Source: an uncultured Chlamydiae bacterium
GTDB taxonomy: Bacteria > Chlamydiota > Chlamydiia > Chlamydiales > JAJFMA01
Length of the DNA: 64,000 nucleotides
Assembly: GCA_963713615.1 (NCBI GenBank)
Contig: CAVQMM010000001.1
Span: 808,667-872,666 of the forward strand
Direction of reading: 5' to 3'
Numbering within the stretch: position 1 is the stretch's first letter; the number at the start of each line of letters is the position of its first letter. The translations under genes were made by a program, and so were the position numbers. Below the pieces are notes generated by a model. That model was not told the DNA's origin, searched no databases, and saw nothing but the letters and a program-made list of their open reading frames with translations. Positions 3,437 through 39,300 of the stretch are shown here, piece by piece.

Positions 3437-5248
3437 ATGTGGAACCCGAAGAAAATACGTAATATCGCTATCATTGCTCACATCGACCATGGCAAAACAA
3501 CCATGCTAGATGCCATGTTAAAACAGTCGAACATCTTTCGAGAAAACGAAGAGATTCCCGAACGAGTGATGGATTCCTACGATCAAGAGCGTGAGCGCGG
3601 AATTACGATCTTTGCCAAGCATACGGGTATTCGCTATGGCGATTATAAGATTAACATTATTGATACGCCTGGCCACTCTGACTTCTCTGGTGAAGTTGAA
3701 CGCGTCCTTGGTATGGTTAACAGCGTTCTATTGCTGGTGGATGCTCAGGAAGGTCCCATGCCCCAGACGCGTTTTGTGCTTTCTAAGGCACTAAAAATGG
3801 GTTTACGCCCGATCGTCGTCATCAATAAAATCGATAGACCACATGCCGATCCACATAGGGTCTTGAACGAAACTTTTGACCTCTTCGCCGAACTCGGTGC
3901 TGATGATGACCAGCTCGACTTCCGTCACTGTTACGCATCGGGACTAGGAGGCTTTGCTACTAAGAACATAGATGATCCTCGCGTCAATATGAACCCGCTC
4001 TTCGACCTCATTATAGAAGCTGTACCAGCACCTGAAGGTGACATCGAAGCACCTTTTTTGATGCAGGTTCGTACCGCTACGTACAACGACTATCTGGGTA
4101 GACAGGCTACTGGTCGAGTGTTGCAGGGGAAAGTCGTTAAAGGTCAGACGGTCGTTTGCGTAAGCACGCAAAAAGAACCTCAGAAATTTAATATTTCACG
4201 CGTTGAAGGTTATGAAGGTCTAAAGAAGGTCGAGTTTGATGAAGGCGTCACCGGCGATATTGTCAGCCTCTCGGGCATTCCCGAAGTCATGCTAGGCGAT
4301 ACCTTGTGTGATCCAGATCACATCATAAGAATGCCAGCGATTGCTTTGGATGAACCAGCTGTTTCCGCCAACTTTATGATCAACTCCAGTCCGCACGCCG
4401 GACGTGAAGGCAAAAATGTTACCTATAACAAAATCAAAGAACGTCTGTGGAAGGAAAAGCGGTCCAATATCTCTCTAGATATCGAAGAATATACTGGGGA
4501 AGGTGAGGCCATCACCGTATCGGGCCGTGGAGAACTTCACTTAGCTGTTCTTATTGAAGCGATGCGACGCGAAGGCTATGAATTGAGCGTCTCTAAGCCT
4601 CAGGTAATCATCAAGGAAATTGATGGGCAGAAATGTGAGCCTATTGAAAATGTCCATGTTGAAGTCCCTGAAGAATTTTCCGGTATCATCATCGAAGAAC
4701 TAGCAAGACGCAAAGGCGAAATGCAATCGTTACATACGAATGAGCATGCCGTTACTCACATGGAATTTCGTATGCCTACACGTGGTTTGATGGGCTATCG
4801 CAACGAGTTCCTAACGGTGACGAGAGGGCTTGGTGTCTTGACCTCAATCTTCGATTCCTTTCAGCCTTGGCGTGGTGAGATCCCACAGCGCAAAAAGGGC
4901 GTTCTGGTATCTATGTGCGACGGAAGAGTCACAGACTATGCACTAGACGGTCTTCGTAGCCGAGGCGTCCTATTCGTTAAGGCCGGAGACCAGGTCTATG
5001 AAGGCATGGTCGTCGGAGAGCATAGCCGTGAGAACGACCTCTTGGTTAATGCTACAAAAGCTAAGCAGCTGACAAACTTCCGCGCATCCGGTAAAGACGA
5101 GCAGGTGTTGATGGCTCCTCCCCGTGTGTTTACTCTGGAGCAAGCCATAGACTACATTGAGGACGATGAGCTTGTCGAAGTCACGCCCAAGAGTATCCGC
5201 ATGCGTAAGACGGTTCTGAAAGAGCAAGATCGTAAGCGCCAGCGGTAA
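3437..5248 (+). CDS. typA: translational GTPase TypA/BipA
   Basis: G-domain motifs ([21 protein letters not shown]) and full-length similarity to the BipA/TypA family. The start is ATG at 3437; the upstream extension of the track ORF into the repeat is rejected. Confidence 0.9.
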
Positions 5249-5520
5249 ACGCAAAGGCGCAAAGAAGAGCTCACGTTTGAACATGCGCAAGGATTTAGGG
5301 CGTAGCAACGGTTTGTGTTATTTTTAGAAGTAACACGGATGCACACGGATTAGGAGGATTTAGGAGGATAGGATTTAGAAATGCAAATCGGTACGACAGC
5401 TATTCCATCCTAAAATCCTAAAATTATTTTTTGGGGTTGGCGAGTCCCATCCTATCCTCCTAAATCCTCCTAGATCCGTGTGCATCCGTGTTGCGCCAAA
5501 AAAATTGAACGAACCGTAGC
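5248..5520. repeat. family-A foldback element, copy truncated at right end
   Basis: Begins immediately after the typA stop with the AACGCAAAGGCGCAAAGAAGAGCTCACGT terminus. It contains the GGAGGATTTAGGAGGATAGGAT core and its complement but lacks the outer right TIR. Confidence 0.75.
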
Positions 5521-5521
5521 A

Positions 5522-6097
5522 TTATTTCATGTGGCGATCGAGTAAAGCACTGTACCAGCACGCCACAGGCATAAAGATGGCCCAAACCACGCCTATGATA
5601 ATTAGGGACTGTCCATCAGGCAGAAGGAATTCGGCTGCTCCAAGACGCGCTCCGGCCAAATAGCTCATCACCCCACCGACAGCGCCACAAATCGCAGCTA
5701 TGAGGGGAAAGTTGCGTAGCCAAAATAGCGAATAATCAACCGCTGCCGCAAAGAGAAAGTAGACACCCACCATCCAGAATGGCGGAGCCCACGAAAGATA
5801 GGGGTTAGGGCTGGCATAGCTAAGAACTCCAAAACTCTGATATCCGATGTCCAAGAGGCATCCTGCCAATGTCACGGTACAGAGAAAAACAGCATCTTTA
5901 GAACGTTGATGCGATAGGAAAAAGTGCACAGCCATCAATGCTGCAAGAATCCATAAGCCTTTACCAGGCTCTCCCGCAGCAGCAAAGATCACCAATGCTG
6001 TCCAACCCCCATAGAAGCTTAGACTGTTGAAAATACGCGCAGGTGCTGGACCCGTAAGAAACTTATACATGTATGCTCCCCAACGTCGAAAAATCAT
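5522..6097 (-). CDS. DUF2878-family integral membrane protein
   Basis: 191 aa with about five TM helices. This family commonly sits next to TIGR01777 (YfcH) epimerase genes, as it does here with a 4-bp overlap. Confidence 0.6.
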   Translation of the reverse strand: MIFRRWGAYMYKFLTGPAPARIFNSLSFYGGWTALVIFAAAGEPGKGLWILAALMAVHFFLSHQRSKDAVFLCTVTLAGCLLDIGYQSFGVLSYASPNPYLSWAPPFWMVGVYFLFAAAVDYSLFWLRNFPLIAAICGAVGGVMSYLAGARLGAAEFLLPDGQSLIIIGVVWAIFMPVACWYSALLDRHMK

Positions 6098-6984
6098 CCA
6101 ATACTCAATATATGACGCAAACAGAGTTCAAGATCTGGGAAGGCAAAACTCATTCCTAATGAAGTGAGCCGCTTAGGGACTGCTCGGCAGCTTGCCAATA
6201 ATAGCGCATCGCCCATTTCGCCAAAAATTAGACCAACAGCCATTGCTGGCATAGGAAAGGGGGTAGGGCGTCGTAGTACCCTTCCTAGCACTTTGGTGAA
6301 AGTTGCATTATCAACAGGGTTTGGGCTAACGAAATTTACAGGGCCTTGAAGACGATCGTCAGTCAAAGCATGGCATAGGTGATTGACCACGTCGTCGATG
6401 CCGATCCAACTATAATATTGCCGGCCAGAACCTAAACGTCCTCCAAGGCATAGCTTGAATGGGGTCAGCATCTGCTTTAGAGCCCCTCCATCAGGGCTAA
6501 GAACAATTCCAAAACGTGGTATGACCACGCGAGCTGTCGTCAATCGTTGGGATGCTCTTTCCCAATCAGCGCAAAGATCCGCCAGAAAACCTGTTCCTTG
6601 GCAACTCTCTTCGTCGACGATTTCATCTCCCCGATCACCATAAAACCCTATAGCCGACGCCGAAATAAAGACCTTGGGAGGAGCCCCTGACCGCTGCAAA
6701 GCTTCAACGAGCAGATTTGTCCCTTCAACCCTGCTAGCATGTAGCCTGGCTTTTTTGCTGCGTGTCCAGCGGCCTGATGCAATGCTCTCACCAGCCAAAT
6801 GGATGACCGCATCAAAACCCCCAAGCTTGTCGGTCTGTATGGTCCCTGCCGAGGGATCCCAAACAACATCCGTCGTCAAGACTGGGTGGCGCGTAAGGCG
6901 ACATACGGTATGTCCTGCTGCAATAAGAGAAGGTTCCAAGGCGCGGCCAATGAGTCCGGTAGCTCCTGACACCAAGATTCGCAT
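6094..6984 (-). CDS. TIGR01777-family NAD-dependent epimerase/dehydratase (YfcH-like, DUF1731 C-terminus)
   Basis: N-terminal Rossmann motif MRILVSGATGLIGRAL; AAGGAG RBS 6 nt upstream of this ATG. The track ORF start 54 nt further upstream is less likely. Confidence 0.75.
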   Translation of the reverse strand: MRILVSGATGLIGRALEPSLIAAGHTVCRLTRHPVLTTDVVWDPSAGTIQTDKLGGFDAVIHLAGESIASGRWTRSKKARLHASRVEGTNLLVEALQRSGAPPKVFISASAIGFYGDRGDEIVDEESCQGTGFLADLCADWERASQRLTTARVVIPRFGIVLSPDGGALKQMLTPFKLCLGGRLGSGRQYYSWIGIDDVVNHLCHALTDDRLQGPVNFVSPNPVDNATFTKVLGRVLRRPTPFPMPAMAVGLIFGEMGDALLLASCRAVPKRLTSLGMSFAFPDLELCLRHILSIG

Positions 6985-7038
6985 GACGTTCTCCTTCGTT
7001 TCTGCACCTATTAGTGCTGAAAACGTCGATTTGGTCAA

Positions 7039-7325
7039 GTTTTAGAAGAGAGAGGGGACGAGGAGAGAAAGGGGGGGGGAGGAGGAGGAATTTTTCTACA
7101 GAGAGCACCGAGACGCAGAGGTAGGAGAGAGAGGATTAGAAAGGAGGAGAGTAATTTTTGTTTAGTGTTTTAAACAAACACTTTCTCGTTCCCTTTCCTA
7201 ATCCTCTCTCTCCTATCTCGGCGTCTCTGAGGTAAAAAAAAATCTTCCTCTTCCTCACCTCTTTCTCTCCTCTTCTTCTTGACAGGGATTACAGAATAGG
7301 AAAAAGTATCTATCGGGAGGTTTGA
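7039..7325. repeat. GA/CT-rich long imperfect palindrome in divergent promoter region
   Basis: Purine-rich arm (GAGAGGGGACGAGGAGAGAAAGG...CAGAGAGCACCGAGACGCAGAGGTAGGAGAGAGAGGATTAGAAAGGAGGAGAG) mirrored by a pyrimidine-rich arm (CTCTCGTTCCCTTTCCTAATCCTCTCTCTCCTATCTCGGCGTCTCTGAGG...). The arms lie around a small central palindrome, GTGTTTTAAACAAACAC. A related GA-rich segment is at about 37840-37925. Confidence 0.6.
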
Positions 7326-8720
7326 ATGTCGAAGCCATCAAAGATAGCAATTATTGGTGCGGGGCTTTCTGGCTTAGCTTGTGCCTACGAGCTGACGAAA
7401 GCCGGGCATGACGTTGTCGTTTATGAAAAAGATGCCGATGTAGGGGGGCGTGCGGGTACTCGCTCTAAACGCGAGTGTCCTTTTGATGTGGGCGCGCAAT
7501 TTCTAAATAACAGCTATACACAAGCCAAAGAGTATTGCAAAGAGTTGGGAATTACCGAAGAGTGGCGCACTATGACTTTGGCTACGCACCACCTCCTGCA
7601 TGATAATCAGCTTCACTGCATCTCTTTTCGATCCATTCGCGAGTTCCTAAGCCTTCGTTTCTACTCACATCTGGCTCGCTTAAGGCTGATGATGTGCTAT
7701 CTGAAGCTCCAGCGTGCGGCCCACGGGATTGATCTTTACGACTTAAGCAGCACTGCAGCCAATTTTGATACTTGCAGCGCTCGTGACTACATCTTGAAGT
7801 GGGGAGGTCCTGAAGTACTTGAATATGCATTCGACTCTCTCATCTTCACCTATCACTTCCATGGGGCTCAGGACCTTAGTCTAAGCTGTCTTTTGGGAGC
7901 CATAGCGGCTATTGGACCAAATTTCACGTATGACTACTTCGTCAAAGGGATCGATGAGATTGCTCAGGCGCTGGCCCGCAAGGTGCATGTCGTTCTCAGA
8001 GCCACCATCACTGATGTCAACGTAGGTCCTCATCATGTTTATCTTAAATTTGAAGACGAAAAGTATCATTATGACGCCATCGTCATTGCTACGACGGCAT
8101 CGGCAGCACGGCGTATCTATCATAAGCCTAGCGCGGCACAACGCGACCTGCTAGAGGCCACTAACTACTCTACAACCATCAATGCCAGCTTCAAAGTCCC
8201 AAGCTTGCCGATCTCCCACCTAGCTATGGTGGCCGTTCCTTCCTCACAGAACGAAAACATCTGCTGCTACTTTAACCAGGCGAGCAAATATTCAGGATTT
8301 TTAGAGGATGGTCAAACGCTGGTGAACGTCTTTGCCCGCGATATCAAAGCCCTAGAACTTATGGATGGTCCGGACGAAAAGATCTGGCAACTGATGGAAC
8401 AGGAGTTCTTAAAGGTATGTCCACCACTGCGGCCTTTTGCCAATCGCATCAGTCGTTACCAGCTTCAGCGTTGGCCAGAGGCGATTCCTAAATATTCCCA
8501 CGGCTATGTCACCAAGGTAGCTAACTTTTTGCAGAATGGCCAGGGAGATAATGGGATTTTCCTCTGTGGCGACTATTTAAATGCTCCATGGATTGAAGGT
8601 AGCCTTCGCGGGGGACGCAAGGTTGCGGGTAAGGTTTTGGAGCACTTGTCGAAGGCTAAAGACATCGAGACAGAAGGGCTAGATATACCACGCGCGGTTA
8701 GATTTGACACACTCGGCTAA
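7326..8720 (+). CDS. FAD-dependent oxidoreductase (amine-oxidase / protoporphyrinogen-oxidase-like fold)
   Basis: N-terminal dinucleotide-binding motif IAIIGAGLSGLACAYEL...VVVYEKDADVGGR; length 464 aa, typical of the PPOX/CrtI-like family. Confidence 0.7.
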   Translation: MSKPSKIAIIGAGLSGLACAYELTKAGHDVVVYEKDADVGGRAGTRSKRECPFDVGAQFLNNSYTQAKEYCKELGITEEWRTMTLATHHLLHDNQLHCISFRSIREFLSLRFYSHLARLRLMMCYLKLQRAAHGIDLYDLSSTAANFDTCSARDYILKWGGPEVLEYAFDSLIFTYHFHGAQDLSLSCLLGAIAAIGPNFTYDYFVKGIDEIAQALARKVHVVLRATITDVNVGPHHVYLKFEDEKYHYDAIVIATTASAARRIYHKPSAAQRDLLEATNYSTTINASFKVPSLPISHLAMVAVPSSQNENICCYFNQASKYSGFLEDGQTLVNVFARDIKALELMDGPDEKIWQLMEQEFLKVCPPLRPFANRISRYQLQRWPEAIPKYSHGYVTKVANFLQNGQGDNGIFLCGDYLNAPWIEGSLRGGRKVAGKVLEHLSKAKDIETEGLDIPRAVRFDTLG

Positions 8721-22900: not shown

Positions 22901-23057
22901 AATTTAACGCTAGGGATCTTCCGGTTTCGTAGTCTTCGCGATGACCCAGTTCACCTCTCCACTTAGCCAGGTTCTGCGCAAAATTCGGTAGTTGATTTGG
23001 AATTACAGAAACCCGCGAACCTATATTGCTTAAGTTATTAAACTCTAAACTATTCAT
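19914..23057 (-). CDS. large hypothetical protein (1047 aa), candidate secreted effector
   Basis: Long uninterrupted ORF with no signal peptide or TM helices and no recognisable domain. Its last 100 codons are duplicated as a fragment at 24893-25210. AT-rich promoter-like region upstream at 23058-23200. Confidence 0.6.
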   Translation of the reverse strand: MNSLEFNNLSNIGSRVSVIPNQLPNFAQNLAKWRGELGHREDYETGRSLALNFIRSFDSLELLCNYIADSSLDRRTIGRLLHLALTDEQRVEICRLSEGFDWGSPTGRVDFLGGLLPVHEYVQVLQGIVQPEPLSEHAYSDLISAMFDCTSGLEGFVLADRDTVVNEHTSNKMLLSIGRSMLEKVEKDLILDNSTVIYNNIPNLDPNATLKQTDIDYARSIFEKVVPHFDSPTLKELFNDVSSNLKLSFCLSASEDQWQELLPINEVRATVLNSCYPPGLDAFPCCFQRCKDVIEFEKTKGNFSISSLHDLVKKIHCHNPEIAKPLWKCICKHAAERPFFIFKELGEKHCKPDYWQMVMLVEQMRVIVSGPGQNGVDKVIDGAISDKHLLPVLIVAASSVYDKGSMLRLIQKIVKKFGPDPCAKACRHYSANQDPAIRNLVKALANVLTPSNFADWTLSLHLHLKHSAHDPLKPRQTCQLYRIICTESSDDQWKELLLRLKSELGQGHYQQLIDMGSAMITCKGSTMITYKKSDQALDVIISNLRNRSIDQITMDEALGFYNSRDTAVVTTLAETFFDIDLFAAIYVEARFFNESKAEWFIKCFIKSTLIDPIKLAQRWLNGSSPDLGIAMARYMPPETFQIVGNQFADLLKSIILIENPVSPQELDAMQRNIQSRYRLFFKVLERIDPANFIKLLSYIPPIEIRGIYREIYRIEGLPLHWPTEATAEKLQLVWRHDPALDNRSYADAYELLRFLIFHGNSICEEFSDSFLQIKLGLKWRETLAGKKLENLDPYLVGLAALDEDFLDSRLQELLNLPKESLSCIWPSISWKVPFPRFQELAINYGLDFWDKGSVPFLSEEELPYLIKLAFEQINDPRAFNRVDNFVTAYHQYMVDLNWDENPGMETLWKKLLEKKRQQAGVKVSISQEGSILDDDLPRCLRNSDVTHMGYLKGTQASCRFDVLKKIQGEFGLTNQMLEEHDLSPMTAYYVLFHTVKDSIRYIAVNAQAAYVQNMYDQVKDFLANNGLTNGDEILGYIQKMFDAPDVD

Positions 23058-28300: not shown

Positions 28301-29595
28301 AGCGCACCGCTAGCTTCTAGGCGTTCTAATACCCCTGAGACATCCTGAAGACTAAATTTTCCAACACCGTCACGTGCGATTAACTGCACATCTGGTAGCC
28401 GCAGTGCAATACGAACAGTCGGATGAGTATTTGAGCCTTGTGTTAAACGCGTTGGCAGTGTCAAGCGCTGGACTTCTATCTCTAGAGTCGTATCTTTCTT
28501 CAGTGATACTGTCGACTCAGATCCCGGCCGCTGCAACTGCCATATGCGTTCAAAGAGGTCAGGCGTCATCTTTAGGCTAATGATGCCCGGTCGCTCTAAG
28601 ATAAGGTTGCCATCGCTTAAGTGAGTGACAAGGTCCGCTTTAAAGTTAGTACTATCTCCCACAATCTCAAGAGAGGGGCCTGAACTGCTCAACAGTAAGT
28701 CTAGCTTAAGGTTAAGGGTTTCACCTAATGCATCACCTAAGAGTCCTGTCCAGGCTGGGTGCCCTAATGTCAGCACTTGGTCAAAAACATGCACAGCGGC
28801 ATTCTGGACATTCATTTTAACATGAATCTGTCCATCGCCTTCAGGAAGAGGAATCCCCGTCACGCTTGGTTGTAGGAGCAATTGCCCATGGGAGTCGAGT
28901 CCATCCAAAGTTGCTTCAAAAGCAAAATGCCCAGCGAGCTCTTGCTGATGGGATTTGCCTCTTATCTTTAAAATGGCCGTTTCTTGCGCCGGATCATGTT
29001 GTAGAGATGCTTGAATATCATCGAGACTAACCACTTCGCTGGTCTTGTTCTGTAAAACGATGGTGCCATCATTGACCACCAGACGACCTTTAAAAGGTAC
29101 GGAGATAGAGGACTGCGTGGGAATTTTACGCTCGGCCACTAGATCTTCGGATGGTTCTAAATCAACTTTCGTTTCAGGTTTGATGAAAGCACTGTGTAAG
29201 CTGGTGTGGCCTTGTCCATCTGGGATCAAGTCGGCATGCAAGCCATGGATTTCTGCATTTCCCAAGTCCATATGGGAGATTAATAGGGATAGGGGAGACG
29301 CATCGGTCGCCATTCGATTGATCGTCAACACCACCTGGCCATCAGGATCCCTAACAGTAATTCCTTGTGCTGTCTGATGACCAAACCAACCAAGGCTAAG
29401 GTCATCGATCTCCACGCTACCTGGGATATGCTCGTTGATAAGGGCTACAACCCTCTCTTTCCCCCAAGACGTACTCACGATACTTGGTAGACTCAATGTA
29501 ACGACAATGAAAGCTGCGAGCAAGCCACCAAATATCCGAAGAAAACGAACGTTGTTGGAGGGCTTTGTTAACCTAGGCGTATCTTGGCCGGGCAT
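25366..29595 (-). CDS. very large membrane-anchored protein (1409 aa), TamB/AsmA-like
   Basis: Single N-terminal TM anchor (FLRIFGGLLAAFIVVTLSL) followed by about 1300 aa of beta-rich, low-complexity-free sequence and a conserved C-terminal segment. The architecture is that of the TamB/AsmA family; assignment by architecture and vague sequence recall only. Confidence 0.45.
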   Translation of the reverse strand: MPGQDTPRLTKPSNNVRFLRIFGGLLAAFIVVTLSLPSIVSTSWGKERVVALINEHIPGSVEIDDLSLGWFGHQTAQGITVRDPDGQVVLTINRMATDASPLSLLISHMDLGNAEIHGLHADLIPDGQGHTSLHSAFIKPETKVDLEPSEDLVAERKIPTQSSISVPFKGRLVVNDGTIVLQNKTSEVVSLDDIQASLQHDPAQETAILKIRGKSHQQELAGHFAFEATLDGLDSHGQLLLQPSVTGIPLPEGDGQIHVKMNVQNAAVHVFDQVLTLGHPAWTGLLGDALGETLNLKLDLLLSSSGPSLEIVGDSTNFKADLVTHLSDGNLILERPGIISLKMTPDLFERIWQLQRPGSESTVSLKKDTTLEIEVQRLTLPTRLTQGSNTHPTVRIALRLPDVQLIARDGVGKFSLQDVSGVLERLEASGALVYQLNAAITHLDQHGSLRIAGKLIDQDHTDTILLGDLVVAATKIPTAAFDYLFRTDGLLVGSLGENFDLQAKIVTDSQGRRMDVQMGSDSFAAPSLQFKLADSLQLVKPAQVHMQATPALVRYLLGTNSKIVLEERTSMLLTLNQLTVPLGRQETGDKAIIDAEIATAPFVIGGLTDSQQGRARFSNVKLRANGGKFSDLHFALHTDIAPDGVTPVLTAALGSVSTVELEGILATPSLSDPSFSELRLSLQNELIDARILAKSQSDGSLSLISPATLRYNLKSEALLALGVMQPQVPHLLQRNPVEVRVDDFTVRFNETGPRVVFCRGKASVGELQVVQEAESNPLAILRDVVFSWRYDSTSQLAALVLRAKSEMNKEQGFLEASLDLAQWGSSMEELLRGSIAKLEVNGQHFPLVVVSALTGRKGWSEIIGPTVELSLQGHYGPTDNTSEGLLSLSMSADQFQAKSQFNINSQGATLQADKPMTLSWTVTPDRWQALQEVLGTPGAPMNLPWAVVEPATLLATLNTVTLPLRPIAGLVDGSDDQCVFLSPALAGSITWDGVRIRDTLSNDEATLQNLGLTFETDNVAKGMDFTLQAREQAGESKYAPAEADVTGHVARLDSTKPWLESPMLAVDLSITGKELSLVHLLRYPLQRAAVSQHLPGLIGQRVSGTVQFQLKGPDGHLQASLVGDSGRFEVDGQIAKRILTLRQPLVLELEVTPELRHGLLRDVAPYMAATKSTEKPIRFTVDPVGFSLPVDDLNHARIGQATLEMGKVKIEDNGQLGAVISILQGDRDQDNGTFNVWFTPLNLSLADGILKFSRMDALIADHYPVALWGRIDLIKDHVRMIIGITAQALRNAYSLMNVDDKYMLQLPLTGTIDNASIDKTKATARVTALLAQSQGSAHGAMVGGVLDLLGGGLHDEKVPPPNGPLPWEPASPEGGSKPVAETKPLNGLHKEVKKGAKKLLDALRLNTSR

Positions 29596-29917: not shown

Positions 29918-30617
29918 ATGGATTTCGGGATAGCTGATCAAGAAATACCTGCAGTACCCATTTCAACCGCAATCCTTCCCACGGCTATAAATCTCCATTC
30001 CTCAAATTGCCCCAACTCCCATTCGACGGTCATGATTCTAGCGCCAGGCCAACTGGAGTATGTTCCTAAACCCGAGAATGACGCCATGAGCATCGAGGAT
30101 GACTCTCAGCCATCAAATAAGTAGTGATCACACATGGGTTGATGCTATCGCTATGTGGCCAAACTACACGGGGAATTTTGATCCTGCAAAACACTTCTGT
30201 TTAGTCATGGACCTGTGGGGACCTTCTCTCCTTCAACGTCTAAAGGCTAATCATGTCTATTCCCTTCCTAACCTTCAAAAAATAGCGCAACAATTATTTT
30301 TAGGCCTTCAGGATATTCATGAAGCACATTTTGTGCATGGCGATATCAAACCTGGCAATGTTCTCACAGATTTGCTTGATCCTTGCACCATTCGCATCGC
30401 GGATCTTGGGACTCTAGTTACTGAGCAAGTGGCATCAACAACTGATCGCCTTTGGACAATTAGTCATGCAGCCCCTGAAGCCTTTTTTGGTGGCCCTCGA
30501 TCCTCTGCAGGGCACATTTGGGCGATGGGATGCCTTCACTATCAGCTTAGCACAGGTAAGGCCTGCTTTGTCGGAAGTAACTCCTCTTGCCTAGTGAATC
30601 AACAGATCGCTGACTAA
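29918..30617 (+). pseudogene. frameshifted, N-terminally degraded paralog of the Ser/Thr kinase
   Basis: ORF 30099-30617 encodes the C-lobe of a kinase (HGDIKPGNVL, IADLG, APE-like). ORF 29918-30124 in another frame resembles the N-lobe segment YIVLAEGQLTG of the intact kinase at 11858-13597 (VMILAPGQLEY). No Gly-loop or VAIK lysine remains. Confidence 0.55.
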
Positions 30618-30749: not shown

Positions 30750-31397
30750 ATGAAGATGTTAAGAGGGGTGATTTATCAGTCGTTTTTGGTTATGAGCCTT
30801 ATCTCTGTTTCATGGGTTCATGCAGGCCCCTTAAATTGTGACGTTGTAGGGAATGTTATGTTAGAGCGATTTAGTGGACGTTCCTATGATGCATCCAAAC
30901 CCATTTCCTCACATCAGCTGCATGCCATATTGGAAGCTGGGCGCTTAGCTCCATCGTCATACAATGAACAACCTTGGAGCTTTATTGTATGCGATCGATT
31001 TACCGATCCGGCTGCTTTTGAGGCTGCGGTGGCCACTTTGGTAGAGTCGAACCAGAATTGGGCTAAGCATGCTCCGGTGTTAATCATAGCGATAGCCAAA
31101 CTTAATTCGAAAGGCGATGGAAAGCCTAATCGGTGGGCCCCGTACGACACTGGGGCGTCCAGTTTTGCGATGATGCTCGAAGCAACATCTTTGGGCCTAA
31201 TGGCACACCAAATGGGAGGCTTTGATGAAACTAAAGTTATCAAGACGTTTGGTGTTCCTAGTGGGCATATGCCCATGGCTGTGATGGCCATAGGCTATGC
31301 TTCACCAGACCAAGCGCCAATTCCTAAAAAACGAAAACCGCTATCCGAAAACTTCTTTCGCGGGTGCTGGGGAAACGGTATCAGCTTTTCAGGCTGA
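30750..31397 (+). CDS. nitroreductase-family protein
   Basis: Family blocks RRSxR-like (RFSGRSYD), PSSYNEQPW and the FMN-binding region. The true start may be the internal Met at about 30858. Confidence 0.7.
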   Translation: MKMLRGVIYQSFLVMSLISVSWVHAGPLNCDVVGNVMLERFSGRSYDASKPISSHQLHAILEAGRLAPSSYNEQPWSFIVCDRFTDPAAFEAAVATLVESNQNWAKHAPVLIIAIAKLNSKGDGKPNRWAPYDTGASSFAMMLEATSLGLMAHQMGGFDETKVIKTFGVPSGHMPMAVMAIGYASPDQAPIPKKRKPLSENFFRGCWGNGISFSG

Positions 31398-31531
31398 CTC
31401 AGCTAGAGATCTTCCTTTTTGAGAGCCTCAACTTTGGACTCAAACTCTTGCGGTGTAATTTTCAAAGCGCCCCAATTCTTCCCAAGAACCTTTTTCTTGA
31501 GCTCCTTTGCATTGGGATGCAATTCGGCTTT

Positions 31532-32470
31532 TTAACCTTCATCCGGTTCCCTTAACGTATTTTCTGTTTCGTCTTCTTTTACATCGCTTGGTTGCTTTTT
31601 ACCCAATCCCATAGTCAATGCCGTCATTCCCGCAAGCCCCCCAAGCTGCATCGTTTCGATGGCCGAGCTGGGAACGATGACGATAGTAGAATTCTGTTTC
31701 AATCCTTCATAAAGCATGTTCATTGCTCTTAAATGCAATGCAACAGGATTGTTGACGTAGGTTTTAGCCGCTTCACCAAATTTTTCTGCCACTTGCCGCT
31801 CTGAATCCCCAAGAATGACCCGAGCTTGACGTTCTCTTTCCGCCTGTGCTTGCATTGACATCGCATCTTCCAAAGCGGGTGGAATCAGGACATCTTTGAC
31901 TTCGACAGAAATGACATTGATTCCCCAAGGCTCAGTCCGTTCATCGATGATGATTTGCAGTTCGTTGCTAATTTTACCTCGTCCCTCAAGCATATCAGAA
32001 AGCATTGTCTTACCAATCACATCGCGCAAAGCTGTTTGGGATGCCCATCCGATGGCGCTTTTGTAATCGGCTACCTCTAAGGCGGCCTTTATAGGATCGA
32101 TCACCTTCCAAAAGAGGACCGCATCGACATCGACAGGCACTGTATCTTTGGTCAGAGTTTTTTCAGCTTTAAATGAACTCGTAATGACACGGATGTCTAT
32201 CCAGAAAGGTATTGTATCGATAACCGGAATGATAAAAAATAATCCTGGCCCCTTTAAGGCATGAAAATGACCCAGTCGTAAAACGATGGCCCTCTCCCAC
32301 TGATTTGCAATGTTAATTGATGCCGAAACGATGTAGGCAAGGAAAAACGTAACGGTAAAGACAAAGTAGCTTGCGTAGCCCTCAAAACTTATATGCATGG
32401 TAAAAGCTACTGCAGCACCGATGAATAAAATGATGAAGAACACTAGGATGGAAAAAGAGTTTGTGTTCAT
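31532..32470 (-). CDS. SPFH/band-7 (stomatin/prohibitin-like) membrane protein
   Basis: N-terminal TM region followed by the SPFH domain (WERAIVLRLGHFHALKGPGLFFIIPVIDT...) and a coiled-coil, Glu-rich tail. Confidence 0.8.
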   Translation of the reverse strand: MNTNSFSILVFFIILFIGAAVAFTMHISFEGYASYFVFTVTFFLAYIVSASINIANQWERAIVLRLGHFHALKGPGLFFIIPVIDTIPFWIDIRVITSSFKAEKTLTKDTVPVDVDAVLFWKVIDPIKAALEVADYKSAIGWASQTALRDVIGKTMLSDMLEGRGKISNELQIIIDERTEPWGINVISVEVKDVLIPPALEDAMSMQAQAERERQARVILGDSERQVAEKFGEAAKTYVNNPVALHLRAMNMLYEGLKQNSTIVIVPSSAIETMQLGGLAGMTALTMGLGKKQPSDVKEDETENTLREPDEG

Positions 32471-32492
32471 TTTGATTTCCTTTTATTTATTT

Positions 32493-35154
32493 CTAAACAT
32501 TTTTTTTAGGTTTATTAGGAGATTCACTTTTTCGAATTTCACGCTCTGACTGCTCCCAATCTTCCTTTGCATGGCCGTCTTGGTGCCCCCTCTTTTCGTA
32601 AAGTTCATAGGCATGTTTAGCGATCTGCGGTGTTATATTGGACGGAGTCTTCGTTTCATGTTTTGGTTCAGATTTGACTGGGTCAATGAACCGATACGCC
32701 AGCAATTTAACACGATCATTCAAGAGGAACCAAGCCAGAGCATACACCCACACGAACAGAGCCCAACCCCAGCCAAGTGGCGTCATAAATAGTCCATAAA
32801 CGGCTATCAATGTAGCCACGATTTGCGTGCCGAGCACAGCCACCCATAAAATCCGCGCAGGAGGTATGGACCAGAAAGGGCCACGGGTACGCGTAAGGAA
32901 GATCGTTAGATGCCCTGCCACAGATAGCTTCAAATACATCATTGTCTGGATATGCGCACGATCGAGATGAAAGACGCGCTCACCAAGATAAAACAGACCG
33001 AAGGCTGCAACAACCCCGATAACACCAAGTACCGTTGCGATGCCCAGTACCATGTGCATATTCCAGGCTTCGGGCCTATTTTTGTAATGAACGTTGTCAT
33101 AGGCAATGGACAGAATGGCACCGTCGTTAAGCAATGCCAGCATAACAATCATCACCGCCGTCAGTGGATAAAAGTTAAAGACCAGAATTGCTAGTGTCAT
33201 AAAAAATAATACGCGCAGTGTTTCAGCGATGCGGTAAATCGCGTAACTATTCATTCTCTGGAAGATACGGCGGCTCTCTTTGATCGCTTCAATAATCACT
33301 GACAATCCGGGCGTAAGAAGCACGATAGCCGCTGCCGCGCGTGCCGCGTCTGTGGCACCAGAAACGGCAATCCCGCAATCGGCTTTTTTCAGAGCAGGAG
33401 CGTCATTCACACCGTCGCCAGTCATGCCGACAATGTGGCCTAGTTTTTGAAAGACATCTATAATATGAAACTTATGCTCTGGAAATACTTGTGCGAAACC
33501 ATCGGCCTTTTCAATGGACTGCTCGATTGCCTTGGTTTCTTGTTTCTTTGAGTCTTCGCCAAGCATGGTAGCATCGAGAATGTTTGTGCCCATCCCTAAT
33601 GTTTTGGCTGTTTCCTTGGCAATGGCTATTGCGTCGCCAGTAACCATCTTAACCTTCACACCCATTTGAGTTGCGGTGGCAATCGTTGCTTTGGCGTCTT
33701 CTCTTGGCGGATCGAACAGAGGCAATACACCCAGATACTGCCATTTGCCGTCTCCATCGGCTCGGGCCACCCCTAAAGAACGAAAGCCGCGTGTCGCGAA
33801 TTCGTCGACTGCTTTTTCGACGATGGTCTTCACTTGCTCGGCATTGGCCGATAAGGCCAAAATCACCTGTGGAGCTCCTTTCGTCACTTTGAACTGTTTT
33901 CCATCTTTGTCCTTGACTGTGGCCTCGGTACGTTTGTGCACCGGATCGAACGGTTGGAAATGGACTACCTGATAGCCTTTCATTGCATCTTTATTTTTCA
34001 AACCACTCAGAACGGCCAGATCAATGGTGTCGTTATTATCTGCGCGCGACGCCAGTGCGGCATTGAGAACAACTTGCTCGGCGTTAACATTGTTTACGCT
34101 GAATGGATCACCTAGCGTCAGCTTATTCTGGGTCAGGGTACCGGTTTTATCCGCGCACAAAACATCTACACCTGCCAATTCTTCGATGGCCACTAACCTA
34201 CTCACAATAGCTTCTTTTTTGGCGAGTAGGCGCGCACCGACTGCCATCGTAACCGATAGCACTGTCGGCATTGCCACAGGAATAGCCGCTACAGTCAACA
34301 CTAAGGCGAACTGCAATGTAGTGAGGATCGGATCTCCGCGGAAGATTGCGACGGTAATAATCAGGGCTACCAGAACCACAGCGAGGATGATCAGATAATT
34401 GCCAATCTTCAAAACTGCTTTTTGAAAATGGCTAACGGTGTGCGCTTCCTGTACTAATTGCGCTGTCTTGCCGAAATAGGTATTCGCACCAGTGCCATAT
34501 ACCAGCGCTCCGATTTCGCCCTGTCGTATAATCGATCCGGAAAATACTGCCTCGCCGGATTTGTGCGTGACAGGCAACGATTCTCCGGTGAGCGCAGACT
34601 GATCTACCTCCACTGGATCCCCCTCTAACAAGCGCGCATCCGCTGGCACAATATCGCCCATGCGCAACCGAATGACATCTCCCGGCACCAATTCACGCGC
34701 CGCCGGATTAGTCCATTTTCCATCGCGTTTCACTCGAGCCTTAATCGCCAGCTTGGCTTTCAGGGCAGCGATGGCATTTCCAGCCTGGCGTTCTTCCCAA
34801 AATCCGACGATGGCATTGGTAAAAAGTAAAAGCAGAATGATAAAAAAATCCGGCCAGTGTCGGACCACGCCAGATAGAATCACCGCTATTTCAATCATCC
34901 ACGGAATGGGACCCCAAAAATAACTGAGGAATTTAAGGAACAGATTGGTTTTCTTTTCTTCAATCTCGTTAGGTCCATATTGGATCAGTCGTTTCTGTTG
35001 CCTCGGCTTGAGTAAGCCCTTCCGCTGAAGACCCCAATTTCTTTTCCAATTCCGGCATGGGAAGGGTTTTTAAATCGTCCTTTGCATCGACATTCGATTT
35101 AGGAGTCTTGGGTTTTGATTCTGGAACCTTGGGTTGTTCGGTATTGGATTTCAT
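32493..35154 (-). CDS. plasma-membrane-type (P3A) H+-transporting P-type ATPase; reading frame interrupted near 34995-35005
   Basis: DKTGTLT, TGES, GDGVNDAPALKKADCGIAVSG and overall collinearity with fungal/plant PMA-type pumps. The first 52 codons (MKSNTEQPK...GLTQAEA, ORF 34969-35154) are in a different frame from the remainder (QQKRLIQYGPNEIEEKK...). A single-nucleotide indel is required to join them; no start codon exists in the downstream frame before the first TM. Confidence 0.8.
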
Positions 35155-35201
35155 TTAGTTTCCCACACTTGAATAGTGAATAATTTTATTAAACGATTCA
35201 A

Positions 35202-36135
35202 CTATGATTTGGGAGCACCCCATTTCCAGTTCCGGATTTCCGGCATGTCTTGGCCGTGCTTATCAATGTAATGCTTGTGCTCGATGAGCTTGTCCTGCAT
35301 CATCTGCTTAGATAGCTTGCCCAGATGCAGCCGTCGAAGTTTGTACCAGATGAAACCGGTCAATATCGTTTTGCACTCGCATGTCAAAGGCTGTCGTGAT
35401 CGTGCCCTCTTCCTTGTATTCCCGAACGTGCATATTTTGGTTGGTCCTGCGATAGGTCAGCCGATGAACTAGGCATGGATAGCCATGAAAGTTAAAGATG
35501 ATGTGCTTGTCTTTTGTGAAGAGTGAATCGTAATCTGTTTCACTTAAGCCATGAGGATGCTCGCTCTTAGGCTGCAGCTTCATCAGATCGACGACATTGA
35601 CGACGCGGATTTTCAGATCGGGAAGATTCTTATGTAGGATAGAAACGGCAGCCAAAGTTTCCAATGTCGGCGTGTCACCGCAGCAGCCCATCACCAGATC
35701 TGGCTCAGAGTGCAGACGTCCATTTTCATCAAATAGCTCCTCGGCCTTGTAGCTTTTCATCCAGTCTTCAAGTAGCTTGACATGATCGTTATATCCATTA
35801 AGGTGCAGGATTGGCAGCACAGCGCCATCGCTAATTGGATTGAGTAATTTATTGGATTGCCATGCGGTTGCCAAAGAGCCCGTTTCTGCTTCACCGTATC
35901 GAGCCCTTGTAAACGGTTGTTTTTTATAGGAGATAACCAGATCTAAGTAATCTTCCAGCGTAAACTTTCCCTCTTCGTAGGTTGCAAAAATCAGATGATG
36001 CCGAGCCTCTATCTCTGCCCACTTCAACTCAAAGTTCGTTGCTGCCCGTTTGCGGGCATGATGATCCCAACCATCGGTGAGCAGAACACCGCCGATATCC
36101 AAAAACAAATGGGTAATTGCATTTGATTTCTTCAT
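35202..36135 (-). pseudogene. phosphoketolase (xfp) remnant: internally deleted and frameshifted
   Basis: ORF 35308-36135 contains the mid-region motif [35 protein letters not shown] joined directly to the C-terminal block [51 protein letters not shown]. The extreme C-terminus ([19 protein letters not shown]) continues in another frame at 35202-35387. The TPP-binding N-terminal about 450 aa is absent. Confidence 0.65.
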
Positions 36136-36744
36136 CTAGTTTTTTCCATTGTGTCATAAGGGACCCTTGGGTCGATGATATCTTTTGTCTAACAGACAAG
36201 AAATTTTAAGCGAAGGGGATTCCCAAAAGATACTTATGGCTCTTGGGAAGAATTGGGGGCGCTTTTTGCTTCCACAAACCATCGAGTAGATGGGCTGCGC
36301 TTTGGAGTCGCAATCGTCACTCGACGCGAAGCGCTTTGGAGCCCCAACCGACCGCATCGCCAACGTTAAAGATCGGCCCGACTACAATTCAACTTCGGCG
36401 AACGACCGCAAAAAATATGGCGATGGCAAGGAGGCCTAGTGGACTTCTGATCCAGGCTCTGCGTGAAAACAGGTCCGATAATTTACGTTATGTATATCCT
36501 GGTGTGGCGGGAAGCTTGAGGCTACGGTAAGTCGCTAATGCGAATCCTACCCCCACGTGGCGGAACACTGCCGAATGCTTCTTCAGAGGCGGTTCTCCAG
36601 TTAATGGAATCCTTGGTAGATGGTATCTTTCAATTTACTGAAATTCGGCCAGTTGTGCCTTTGATCGATTAAAGTGTGGGAAACTGTGCTTGCAACTGCG
36701 TGGTCCACGGCGACGTTTAACGAATGAAAATTCGGGTACATCTT

Positions 36745-37161
36745 TTAAACCCATGGATTGATGATCGCAACTCCCGTAGGGTCAAAGTCTTTGGTATTAT
36801 TTGTCACAACTGCTAGTCCATGTACGATTGCAGTAGCAGCTATATATAGATCCTGTACTCCGAGAGATATACCTTGCTTGGTAAGACTGGCGTTTAGTTG
36901 CCCCCATGCTCTGGCAATAGGCTCATCAATCGGGAGGGAACATTCGCTAAATCGTTGTTGAAATTCCCCATAGAACCATTCCTGAAGCTCTATCTTTTTG
37001 CGAGATGCTTTTAGGCGTGCTATACCATCCTCTATCTCAGCCAACGTCACAACGCTGATAAAAAAAAGATCATCATCTTTTTCAGAAAACCACTCCCTGA
37101 CCTTGACAGGAAGGTTTTGCCGTAAATTAGATATCACGCAGGTGTCTAGCAAAAAGCTCAC
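36745..37161 (-). CDS. vapC: PIN-domain ribonuclease toxin VapC
   Basis: 138 aa; MSFLLDTCVISNL start with conserved acidic residues (D6, E43, D97-like) of the PIN fold. 4-bp overlap with the upstream antitoxin gene. Confidence 0.8.
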   Translation of the reverse strand: MSFLLDTCVISNLRQNLPVKVREWFSEKDDDLFFISVVTLAEIEDGIARLKASRKKIELQEWFYGEFQQRFSECSLPIDEPIARAWGQLNASLTKQGISLGVQDLYIAATAIVHGLAVVTNNTKDFDPTGVAIINPWV

Positions 37162-37418
37162 AATTGCACCTTTCTTGGCAGATCTTTACGACGTTCGGCT
37201 GAGATATCTATTTCTCGATGAGGCGAATTTTGAAAAAAATCGAGGAGCTTTTCTTTGCGTTTTGTTAGCTTATGATAGTCCTTGGCAGACAGTAGCCACG
37301 CACTTTCTATACCTCCCTTAGTGATTTGTTGCGGTCCTTCCTGTTCAGCACGGCGTACAACCTCGCTGAGCTGTTGTTTAGCCGTTTGAAGTTGCCATGT
37401 CGAGGTATGTTTTTTCAT
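37158..37418 (-). CDS. type II antitoxin (Phd/YefM-like)
   Basis: 86-aa protein directly upstream of and overlapping vapC. The WQLQTAKQQLSEVVRRAEQEGPQQITKGG N-terminus is typical of Phd/YefM antitoxins. Confidence 0.6.
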   Translation of the reverse strand: MKKHTSTWQLQTAKQQLSEVVRRAEQEGPQQITKGGIESAWLLSAKDYHKLTKRKEKLLDFFQNSPHREIDISAERRKDLPRKVQL

Positions 37419-37929: not shown

Positions 37930-38830
37930 TATTGTTTAATAGATGTCCATATGAGGTAATTGCAGAAGTAATTGGGCTCTCATGGATCGATTCTTTGAAA
38001 AAAAAATCACTTTTTTTTGTGAGAAGGCGATTCTGGAGAGCTTAAGTGGTATGGCACTATCCAGTCTGGAAAGACAGGCTTTTCTCCCTTCCCAGGCCCG
38101 AAGGGTCGATATTGCAACAGGCCATGGCATAGCCATGGTATATGCCAGGAAGGGATTTCGCAGTCCGATGGACTGCTACAAGACGCCAGTTTACAAACAC
38201 CATTTATGCATGCGCTTTATGGCAGCCCTACAGGCTGCTAAAACCGTTTTGGCATATACCATGGCATAGCCACATAGGCCTCAACCTAACAGGTCTTTTG
38301 AGCTTATATCTCAATGACTTAGGACTTCACAATCGTATCTCGGCGCGCAGCGCTTTGGAGTGCGGTCGCTTGCGACCGCTTTTCGTTCCTTGGGACGGCA
38401 ATGCTAAACGGCATTGTATGGATTCGTCGAAGGCTGCATGTACTAACTATTTTACCCTTAGGGAATTATAGTGATGCCGTTGCACACGACCGTCGCAAGG
38501 AACCCAAAGCGGTCGCAAGCGACCGCACTCCAAAGCGCTGCGCGCCGAGATACGATTGTTAGGCTTAGGTTGAGGCCTATGTGGCATAGCCATGGTATAT
38601 GCCAGGAAGGGATTTCGCAGTCTGAAGGACTGCTACAAGACGCCAGTTTGCAAACACCATTTATGCATGCGCTTTATGGCAGCCCTACAGGCTGCTAAAA
38701 CCGTTTTGGCATATACCATGGCGATGCCATGGCCTGTTGCAATATCGACCCTTCGGGCCTGGGAAGGGAATGACTCTCTCTTCACCGGCATCCGATTTTC
38801 AGGAAATTGACTTCGGAAAATCGGACTTCT
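37930..38830. repeat. composite nested foldback: family-E arms flanking a family-B element
   Basis: E-left (37930-38340, includes the inverted pair CATGGCATAGCCATGGTATATGCCAGG / TGGCATATACCATGGCATAGCCACATAGGCCTCAACC), then B (38341-38549), then E-right in inverted orientation (38550-38830). The latter ends ...TTCAGGAAATTGACTTCGGAAAATCGGACTTCTGCAATTACCTCA. The same architecture recurs at 58380-61470 with an IS66 inserted. Confidence 0.7.
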
Positions 38831-38834
38831 GCAA

Positions 38835-39300
38835 TTACCTCATATTGTCAATTTTTAAGCTACACGTCATTGGCAAATTTGCTTGGATTCGCTCTAGCTG
38901 GGTCCGCGCATCCTCATCAAGACATGGTAAATCGATAACTTTGGGGATCAATTCTCTCAGAATAGTTTGTAGTTGGTTCATCGCCCGGTCGTTGACTTGT
39001 GCTTCGCATGCGCAAAGGTATATTCGTCCGATATTTTTCTGGCTAGTCCCTCGGCTTTCATCGAGTCTAGAGCCCACTTGACGGATGTAGGCCCCAGCGC
39101 TATGAGACTGCATAAACCAAGGATGAGACTTTCTAGGGTGGCAAGTAATGCGTCGCTTGACTTCCCGCTGCCGAAGATCCCCAACGATGCCTCGATTATG
39201 GAGCAGTTCCGCATCCTTGGTGGTGCAATGTTGAGTTATCCGAAGCCTACAGGCGTAATCAACATGATTCGTCCTGATGGTACCCAACCAGACCCTAGGG
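38835..39300 (-). pseudogene. internally deleted paralog fragment of the 42986-44602 gene
   Basis: 38978-39214 (ATLESLILGLCSLIALGPTSVKWALDSMKAEGLARKISDEYTFAH) matches the N-terminal part of the 538-aa protein. 38835-38990 (AMNQLQTILRELIPKVIDLPCLDEDARTQLERIQANLPMT) matches its C-terminus. The nucleotide identity extends to 42965-43140 and 44320-44460. Confidence 0.65.

What the first reader, a model, noticed from the sequence alone, without database searches (positions are those of the whole stretch)
32493..35154. P3A-type proton pump with a single-nucleotide frame break near its 5' end and a DUF2934-like C-terminal tail
The protein is a clear plasma-membrane-type H+-ATPase, a family uncommon in bacteria. 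The first 52 codons (ending GLTQAEA) are out of frame with the remainder (QQKRLIQYGPNEIEEKK...). The shift lies within a few nucleotides of 34995-35005, and the downstream frame has no start codon. This is either an early pseudogenisation, a sequencing or assembly indel, or a translational recoding site. The C-terminus ends in HAYELYEKRGHQDGHAKEDWEQSERE, which resembles the small DUF2934 motif.
Basis: seen in the sequence. Interest (0 to 1): 0.5.

Follow-up and report, generated by a model that had tools for sequence, protein, structure and literature searches.

The report
Frameshifted bacterial proton-pump gene, decaying island
A well-known type of bacterial proton-pump gene carries one extra A that breaks its reading frame after codon 52, most likely a very recent inactivation (or a sequencing slip) in a horizontally acquired gene cluster that this chlamydia-like genome is losing, so it is ordinary.

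Summary
On the minus strand, 32493-35154 encodes a P3A plasma-membrane-type H+-ATPase (TIGR01647, 1076 bits against a cutoff of 615). Its frame is broken by one extra A at 34998/34999: GAGGCAACAG here, GAGGC(A/G)CAG in the four closest DNA relatives. Removing it gives an 886-aa protein reading ...GLTQAEAQKRLIQYGPNE..., as in all close homologues.

The DUF2934 tail is real (PF11154, 42.5 bits) but typical of the family: 106 of the 120 best homologues have it. The pump is not rare in bacteria. More than 8000 homologues were scored, and at least 599 species-representative genomes from many phyla carry one.

The host is a chlamydia (CPAF equivalog, 695 bits). The pump belongs to a horizontally spread ack-xfp-aldolase/TIM-ATPase-Band7-6PGD-G6PD island. 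Here four deletions have removed about 5 kb upstream, and 6PGD and G6PD are missing.

The ATPase is otherwise pristine: window-branch dN/dS is 0.08, and only one unusual residue is seen. The break is therefore either very recent or an assembly error.

- Real, recent pseudogenisation during island decay: about 0.6.
- Consensus error: about 0.33.
- Recoding: about 0.02. No slippery motif, no RNA structure, and no relative shares the break.

Interest is low.

The parts
34969..35154 (-). ORF1: start codon and the first 52 native codons of the H+-ATPase (to GLTQAEA), then 9 out-of-frame codons and a TAA stop
   Evidence: The N-terminus aligns with the N-termini of P0001-P0011 and with AHA2 residues 2-30.
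34998..34999 (-). Site of the frame break: AA where all four closest relatives have a single base (GAGGCAACAG versus GAGGCACAG or GAGGCGCAG). One of the two A's is the extra base.
   Evidence: DNA alignments. Deleting one A restores an 886-aa ORF.
32493..34997 (-). Rest of the H+-ATPase reading frame, codon 53 (QKRLIQYGPNE...) to the stop. It contains TGES (34578-34589), the DKTGT phosphorylation site (34137-34151), TGDGVNDAP (33396-33422), the TM5 Arg in ETLRVL (33207-33224) and the TM6 Asp in LLNDG (33120-33134).
   Evidence: There are no further stops or frame breaks. Window-branch dN/dS is 0.079.
34896..34898 (-). First start codon in the downstream frame (Met-86 of the repaired protein, in mid-TM1). 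It is the start of the 801-aa ORF that public gene calling reports (P0005).
   Evidence: P0005 is the only one of the 120 best homologues that lacks PF00690 Cation_ATPase_N.
32532..32627 (-). C-terminal DUF2934 motif (QIAKHAYELYEKRGHQDGHAKEDWEQSEREIR)
   Evidence: PF11154 at 42.5 bits against a cutoff of 22. Coordinates. Present in 106 of 120 homologues. No solved relative.
35208..36149 (-). Mosaic remnant of the upstream island genes: the 5' end of a HAD-like gene (36149-35898) fused to three phosphoketolase pieces (35897-35783, 35788-35712, 35711-35208). A further loss of about 17 nt near 35330 breaks the frame.
   Evidence: blastn against L001 and L083, Pfam and NCBIfam, alignment, tblastn.
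35155..35207 (-). Last ~50 nt of the deleted aldolase/TIM gene. In intact islands this gene overlaps the ATPase start codon, which suggests translational coupling.
   Evidence: Alignment with L001 5949-6000 and L002. Gene calls in L001 are 4469..6004 and 6001..8649.
31532..32470 (-). Intact Band 7/SPFH gene directly downstream. It is the last retained island gene. Homology to L001, L002 and L083 stops at about 31558-31569, where they continue into 6PGD and G6PD.

Best explanation
This is a bacterial P3A-type proton-efflux P-type ATPase gene of the common architecture: Cation_ATPase_N, E1-E2 core, HAD-type P domain, ten predicted TM helices and a DUF2934 tail. It arrived by horizontal transfer as part of a fermentation and pH-homeostasis island (HAD-like, acetate kinase, phosphoketolase, aldolase/TIM, H+-ATPase, Band 7, 6PGD, G6PD).

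In this chlamydial genome the island is being lost. Four deletions removed acetate kinase, most of phosphoketolase and aldolase/TIM, and 6PGD and G6PD are absent. A one-base insertion (an extra A at 34998/34999) now shifts the ATPase frame after codon 52.

Translation from the native start would end after 61 residues. The only in-frame restart, Met-86, lies in the middle of TM1. It would give a product without the N-terminal A-domain segment and without half of TM1, so no working pump is expected.

- **Shown:** the insertion, the deletions, the family assignment and the lack of secondary lesions.
- **Inferred:** that the extra base exists in the organism rather than only in the assembly, and that the truncated product is inactive.
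For: - **Private insertion.** The extra A is absent from all four closest DNA relatives. At least 83 of 84 related loci read through the site in one frame.
- **Undoubted decay next door.** The adjacent upstream genes of the same operon have four deletions of about 2.2, 0.33, 0.82 and 1.76 kb relative to L083, plus a loss of about 17 nt. These cannot be base-calling errors.
- **Missing partners.** 6PGD and G6PD follow Band 7 in L001, L002 and L083 but are absent here.
- **Clean assembly elsewhere.** About 40 other ORFs in the 64-kb window give full-length domain matches with no frame breaks. The assembly is therefore not generally indel-prone, and the defects cluster in one island.
- **Sequence context.** The site is not a long homopolymer.
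- **Timing fits.** Window-private codon changes in the remnant are 9 non-synonymous to 19 synonymous, so the island's decay is recent. This matches an ATPase with a single lesion.
- **Relatives vary too.** L083 has at least 8 gene breaks confined to HAD-ack-xfp-FBA-TIM-ATPase. L002 and L084 lack xfp and ack.
- **Host lifestyle.** The host is a chlamydia (CPAF equivalog at 694.6 bits; BipA hits). From general knowledge, gene loss is common in that lineage.
Against: - **No mark of relaxed selection.** Apart from the one base, the gene shows none. Window-branch dN/dS is 0.079, the same as in intact orthologues. Only one substitution (L568F) falls at a column that is at least 97% conserved, against a median of 2 for 120 homologues. 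There is no second stop or indel in 2.66 kb.
- **Intact neighbour.** The Band 7 gene downstream is intact.
- **Single, unverified assembly.** The sequence is known from one assembly. Related contigs have metaFlye-style names and carry private single-base frame breaks of the same kind, so a long-read consensus error cannot be excluded. No reads were available.
Confidence: 0.6

Rival explanations
1. Assembly or consensus error. The organism has an intact 886-aa pump gene, and the extra A was introduced by sequencing or polishing of a single, probably long-read, metagenome assembly.
For: - The repaired gene is indistinguishable from functional orthologues (dN/dS 0.079, one unusual residue, no other lesion).
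- Only one assembly carries the sequence.
- The closest relatives come from ENA assemblies with contig_NNNN names. They show private single-base breaks in the same island: L083 has +C in the ATPase, and L001 and L083 each have a different break in xfp.
- Band 7 downstream is intact.
- The insertion allele was not found in JGI metagenome contigs. This is weak evidence, because the organism may simply be absent there.
Against: - No other frame break was seen in about 40 recognised genes over 64 kb.
- The site is a dinucleotide, not a long homopolymer.
- The break sits in the one operon of the window that is demonstrably decaying by large deletions. A randomly placed error would land there about 4% of the time (2.7 of 64 kb).
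Confidence: 0.33
2. Programmed recoding. A +1 ribosomal frameshift or transcriptional slippage at or near GCA-ACA joins the two frames, so a full-length pump is made, possibly in a regulated way.
For: - The two frames overlap by about 30 codons.
- A GAGG, which resembles a Shine-Dalgarno sequence, lies just 5' of the site. It is reminiscent of prfB, but this is my own recollection and is not evidence.
Against: - No relative shares the break, so nothing is conserved.
- The GAGG is ordinary coding sequence (A-E-A) in all orthologues.
- tRNA-Ala on GCA cannot re-pair on CAA (inference from base pairing).
- No stop or rare codon follows the site.
- There is no A/T run of 7 or more for transcriptional slippage.
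- The local RNA fold has z = -0.8.
Confidence: 0.02
3. The 801-aa ORF starting at Met-86 (34898) is a functional N-terminally truncated pump, or the gene works as two pieces.
For: The 801-aa ORF is open and is what public gene calling reports (P0005).
Against: - Met-86 lies inside TM1 (PWMIEIAV).
- The product would lack Cation_ATPase_N (PF00690), which is present in the other 119 of the 120 best homologues. It would also lack the region aligned to AHA2 residues 2-~62.
- No Shine-Dalgarno-like sequence precedes the ATG.
- No orthologue has this arrangement.
Confidence: 0.03

Closest known systems
[quoted passage not shown]
   Same: - Full-length match to the equivalog model (1075.7 bits, model positions 1-755).
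- Domain order is the same, and TGES, DKTGT and TGDGVNDAP are conserved.
- 93% amino-acid identity to intact proteins P0001-P0003.
- The DUF2934 tail is present, as in 106 of 120 homologues.
   Different: This copy has a one-base insertion after codon 52, so it cannot encode the full protein as written. The transport function of the prokaryotic members has not been determined experimentally (review PMC10654040).
Plant AHA2 (PDB 5ksd) and fungal Pma1 (1mhs, 7vh5) plasma-membrane H+-ATPases
   Same: - Best solved relatives: 721, 654 and 644 bits over residues ~27-816.
- The proton acceptor Asp (AHA2 Asp684; LLNDG here) and the TM5 Arg (AHA2 Arg655; ETLRVL here) align (residue roles from PMC10654040).
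   Different: There is no plant R domain and no fungal regulatory terminus. The C-terminus instead carries a ~32-residue DUF2934 motif of unknown function with no solved relative.
Single-lesion pseudogenes in recently acquired or recently dispensable operons of host-associated bacteria (general knowledge)
   Same: One disabling frameshift lies in an otherwise conserved gene, next to deletion remnants of the same operon, in a chlamydial genome.
   Different: Whether the lesion exists in vivo is unverified, because no read data were available.

Membership tests
P3A H+-ATPase (TIGR01647 / P-type ATPase subfamily IIIA) | Whole-protein score above the curated equivalog cutoff, and better than the sister subfamilies | tested here: met
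   1075.7 bits against a cutoff of 615.5.
P3A H+-ATPase (TIGR01647 / P-type ATPase subfamily IIIA) | P-type catalytic motifs: TGES (A domain), DKTGT phosphorylation site, TGDGVNDAP hinge | tested here: met
   All three are present, at residues 189-192, 335-339 and 578-586 of the repaired protein. They align to AHA2.
P3A H+-ATPase (TIGR01647 / P-type ATPase subfamily IIIA) | Proton acceptor/donor Asp in TM6 and controlling Arg in TM5 (AHA2 Asp684 and Arg655; PMC10654040) | tested here: met
   LLNDG aligns with ILNDG, and ETLRVLF aligns with ITIRIVF, in the 5ksd alignment.
P3A H+-ATPase (TIGR01647 / P-type ATPase subfamily IIIA) | One uninterrupted ORF encoding the N-terminal domain through TM10 | tested here: not met
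   The frame is broken after codon 52 by one extra A. As written the locus is a pseudogene or mis-assembled copy of the family, not an intact member.
P3A H+-ATPase (TIGR01647 / P-type ATPase subfamily IIIA) | ATP-driven H+ export | not testable with these tools
   This needs biochemistry. The review PMC10654040 states that the transport function of prokaryotic P3A ATPases remains to be determined.
DUF2934 (PF11154) | Score above the Pfam gathering threshold | tested here: met
   42.5 bits against 22, E = 5e-11, profile positions 5-36 of 37.
Programmed +1 frameshift genes (prfB-like) | Frame break conserved among orthologues, with a slippery or hungry codon plus a stimulator | tested here: not met
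   No related locus shares the break (at least 83 of 84 read through). There is no in-frame stop or re-pairing codon at the site. The fold has z = -0.8.

The most novel reading that the evidence does not exclude
The extra A is real and is bypassed at low efficiency by +1 frameshifting near GAG-GCA-ACA. The pump would then be made in small, possibly condition-dependent amounts from a newly arisen recoding site, rather than being dead.
Probability: 0.02. Interest if true: 0.55.

Novelty: already known. Interest (0 to 1): 0.13.

Why it matters
It matters little in itself. A single-base frame break in a well-annotated gene family is a routine pseudogene or assembly-error call, and the DUF2934 tail is the family norm.

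There are two practical lessons:
- The public 801-aa gene model for this locus is an artefact of the break and should be annotated as a frameshifted pseudogene.
- The textbook view that prokaryotic P3A pumps are mostly archaeal (PMC10654040) is outdated. These pumps are widespread in bacteria.

The context is more interesting than the break. The pump travels in an xfp-linked island that is 80-86% identical at the protein level across many phyla. The island is seen here and in relatives at different stages of loss.

Tried and rejected
- **Independent copies of the same sequence.** Exact-product look-ups for the 801-aa ORF, the 61-aa ORF1 and the Band 7 protein found nothing on record.
- **Metagenome scans.** One scan covered the site with or without the extra base in this lineage's flanks. 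The other covered the insertion allele with wobble freedom. Both found nothing, so there is no independent confirmation or refutation of the allele.
- **Cluster look-up.** It gave no accession or organism name.
- **Recoding.** Rejected: no conservation, no slippery motif and no stimulatory structure.
- **Functional internal start.** Rejected on topology and on the universal presence of PF00690 in homologues.
- **Promoter and terminator scan of 31300-36800.** Nothing above the shuffled expectation.
- **tRNA and Rfam scans of the window.** Empty.
- **Literature.** Searches for DUF2934 and for the xfp/ack/H+-ATPase cluster found nothing relevant.
- **Tail against solved structures.** Only a chance hit, E = 0.89.
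- **Not attempted.** Structure prediction of the tail, because the tool returns no coordinates from which docking could be judged.

Full report
**Observation**

On the minus strand, a 61-codon ORF runs from 35154 to 34969 and ends ...GLTQAEATETTDPIWT*. The neighbouring frame reads ...QQKRLIQYGPNEIEEKKTNLFLKFLSYFWGPIPWMIE... and stays open to the stop at 32493-32495. In that frame the first ATG/GTG/TTG after the preceding stop is the ATG at 34896-34898. This gives the 801-aa ORF listed, and the same 801-aa product is in the public protein collection as P0005.

Aligning the DNA with the closest relatives that could be fetched shows one extra base in the window. These are L001 and L002 and then also L083 and L084, all about 89-90% identical in nucleotides. 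The window reads GAGGCAACAG where the others read GAGGCACAG or GAGGCGCAG.

Deleting one A gives a single 886-codon ORF. Its junction reads GLTQAEA-QKRLIQYGPNEIEEKK, exactly as in P0001-P0011, and it aligns with AHA2 residues 2-70.

**Identity of the gene**

[quoted passage not shown] It scores 1075.7 bits against a cutoff of 615.5. The sister subfamilies all score below their own cutoffs.
- Pfam finds Cation_ATPase_N, E1-E2_ATPase, Hydrolase and DUF2934.
- The best solved relatives are Arabidopsis AHA2 (5ksd, 721 bits) and fungal Pma1.
- TGES, DKTGT and TGDGVNDAP are present. So are the TM6 Asp and TM5 Arg, which the review PMC10654040 describes as the proton acceptor and its controlling residue.

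**The DUF2934 tail**

PF11154 matches residues 843-874 (window 32532-32627) at 42.5 bits against a cutoff of 22. It is not special to this copy, because the precomputed Pfam column shows it in 106 of the 120 best homologues. It has no solved relative, and the searchable literature does not discuss it in connection with ATPases. Its function is unknown. A regulatory role like the plant or fungal C-terminal domains is only a guess.

**Rarity**

The claim that the family is uncommon in bacteria does not hold. All 8000 scored candidates had E<=1e-50. They include Verrucomicrobiota, Bacteroidota, Acidobacteriota, Chloroflexota, Planctomycetota, Cyanobacteria, Nitrospirota and cultured methanotrophs. 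A 2023 review still says prokaryotic P3A pumps are mainly in methanogens (PMC10654040). Papers on acidophile genomes already list them as bacterial pH-homeostasis genes (PMC8196465, PMC8886135).

**Host and context**

The window encodes a CPAF equivalog (694.6 bits against a cutoff of 250). The named relatives of its BipA are Chlamydiales at 68-71% identity, so the host is a chlamydia. The ATPase is 80-86% identical to proteins in genomes of other phyla, which is higher than BipA reaches within the order. It was therefore acquired horizontally.

In relatives the pump sits in an island. The gene order is HAD-like, acetate kinase, phosphoketolase, sometimes DUF389, aldolase/TIM, ATPase, Band 7, 6PGD and G6PD. 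Phosphoketolase is linked to the pump in about 30 of 82 fetched loci.

**State of the island in the window**

blastn against L001 and L083 shows five blocks of homology. They are 36149-35898 (5' end of the HAD-like gene), three phosphoketolase pieces (35897-35783, 35788-35712, 35711-35208), and 35207-31558 (ATPase plus Band 7).

Relative to L083, four deletions of about 2.2, 0.33, 0.82 and 1.76 kb have removed the following:
- the rest of the HAD-like gene;
- acetate kinase;
- most of phosphoketolase;
- aldolase/TIM.

A further loss of about 17 nt breaks the remnant's frame near 35330. Homology stops at the end of Band 7, where the relatives continue into 6PGD and G6PD. The 275-aa ORF at 35308-36135 is thus a chimeric remnant. 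Window-private codon changes in the remnant are 9 non-synonymous to 19 synonymous, so these deletions are evolutionarily recent.

**Age of the frame break**

Apart from the extra A, the ATPase looks fully constrained.
- By Nei-Gojobori estimates on three taxa, the window branch has dN 0.017, dS 0.22 and a ratio of 0.079. L001 gives 0.082 and L002 gives 0.148.
- Only one residue (L568F) departs from a column that is at least 97% conserved among 120 homologues. The median per homologue is 2.
- There is no second stop or indel in 2.66 kb.

The break is therefore either very young or not real.

**Real mutation or assembly error?**

*For a real mutation:*
- The same operon is undeniably decaying by large deletions.
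- Its partner genes are gone.
- About 40 other ORFs across the 64 kb give complete domain matches with no frame breaks.
- The site is not a long homopolymer.
- Relatives hold the island at other stages of loss. L083 has at least 8 gene breaks confined to the HAD-to-ATPase stretch, with five intact genes after it. L002 and L084 lack ack and xfp.

*For an error:*
- Only one assembly carries the sequence.
- The related contigs have long-read-assembler style names and carry private single-base breaks of the same type.
- The gene is otherwise perfect.
- Band 7 is intact.

No reads were available. Two metagenome scans for the allele found nothing. I put a real, recent pseudogenisation at about 0.6 and a consensus error at about 0.33.

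**Recoding and internal start**

At least 83 of 84 related loci read through the site in one frame, and none shares the break. There is no slippery codon, no in-frame stop or hungry codon at the site, and no A/T run long enough for transcriptional slippage. The 111-nt region folds no better than shuffled sequence (z = -0.8). Recoding is about 0.02.

The internal ATG lies in the middle of TM1. The product would lack the Cation_ATPase_N domain, which is found in the other 119 of the 120 best homologues. A functional truncated pump is about 0.03.

**Verdict**

This is a correct and careful observation of an ordinary thing. A known, widespread bacterial P3A proton-pump gene with its usual DUF2934 tail is disabled by one extra base, or appears to be, within a horizontally acquired island that this chlamydial genome is shedding. 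Interest is low. The cross-phylum spread of the island and the unstudied DUF2934 tail are the only aspects that might repay further work.

Noticed in passing
window 31532-36149; loci L001-L084: The ATPase, and often a linked phosphoketolase, is 80-86% identical in amino acids across species-representative genomes of many phyla. These include a Thermoplasmata archaeon and cultured Methylomicrobium lacus and Methylobacter marinus. That is higher than this window's BipA reaches against named Chlamydiales (68-71%). It points to a widely and recently exchanged xfp/H+-ATPase island in soil and peat communities. I found no paper describing it.
   Followed up: partly
window 35308-36135 (-): A chimeric 275-aa ORF joins the first ~80 residues of a HAD-like protein to three phosphoketolase fragments. 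All three large deletion junctions keep the native reading frame, which has about a 1 in 27 chance. Only a later ~17-nt loss near 35330 breaks the frame. The in-frame junctions are unexplained.
   Followed up: partly
L083 1908-10992 (ENA ERZ25039540 contig_35705): The closest ATPase relative (96% identity) has at least 8 gene breaks confined to HAD-ack-xfp-aldolase-TIM-ATPase, while the next five genes are intact. This is either independent decay of the same island or low-coverage long-read errors. L001 has its own break in xfp.
   Followed up: partly
window 53213-54955 (-); whole source contig: A CPAF equivalog (694.6 bits) marks the genome as chlamydial. The identical 801-aa product is recorded on a 3,904,876-bp contig, which would be a very large chlamydial genome (my own knowledge of typical sizes).
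   Followed up: no
window 37936-38858: Nested inverted repeats (63 nt at 98%, 86 nt at 90%, 40 nt at 93%, 34 nt at 85%) and a 148-nt direct repeat (96%, 457 nt apart) form a large palindromic block in an ORF-poor stretch next to the island. Its nature is unknown.
   Followed up: no
window 36745-37418 (-): An intact type II toxin-antitoxin pair (PIN/VapC toxin, Phd/YefM antitoxin) lies just upstream of the island remnant.
   Followed up: no
window 58436-61062 (+): A complete-looking IS66 element is present (130-aa orf, TnpB_IS66 and a 514-aa DDE transposase). L002 also has an IS66 transposase near its copy of the island.
   Followed up: no
window 47577-50749 (-): Two tandem paralogous ~490-aa proteins each carry a central GIY-YIG nuclease domain and are otherwise unannotated.
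   Followed up: no
window 30099-30617 (+): A 172-aa ORF matches only Pkinase profile positions 65-209 of 263, so it lacks the N-lobe. No adjoining fragment appears in another frame. It may be a second gene remnant near the island.
   Followed up: partly
window 25366-29595 (-), 19914-23057 (-), 56093-58270 (-): Three very large ORFs (1409, 1047 and 725 aa) have no significant Pfam or NCBIfam family. The only match is a sub-threshold DUF748 hit on the first.
   Followed up: no
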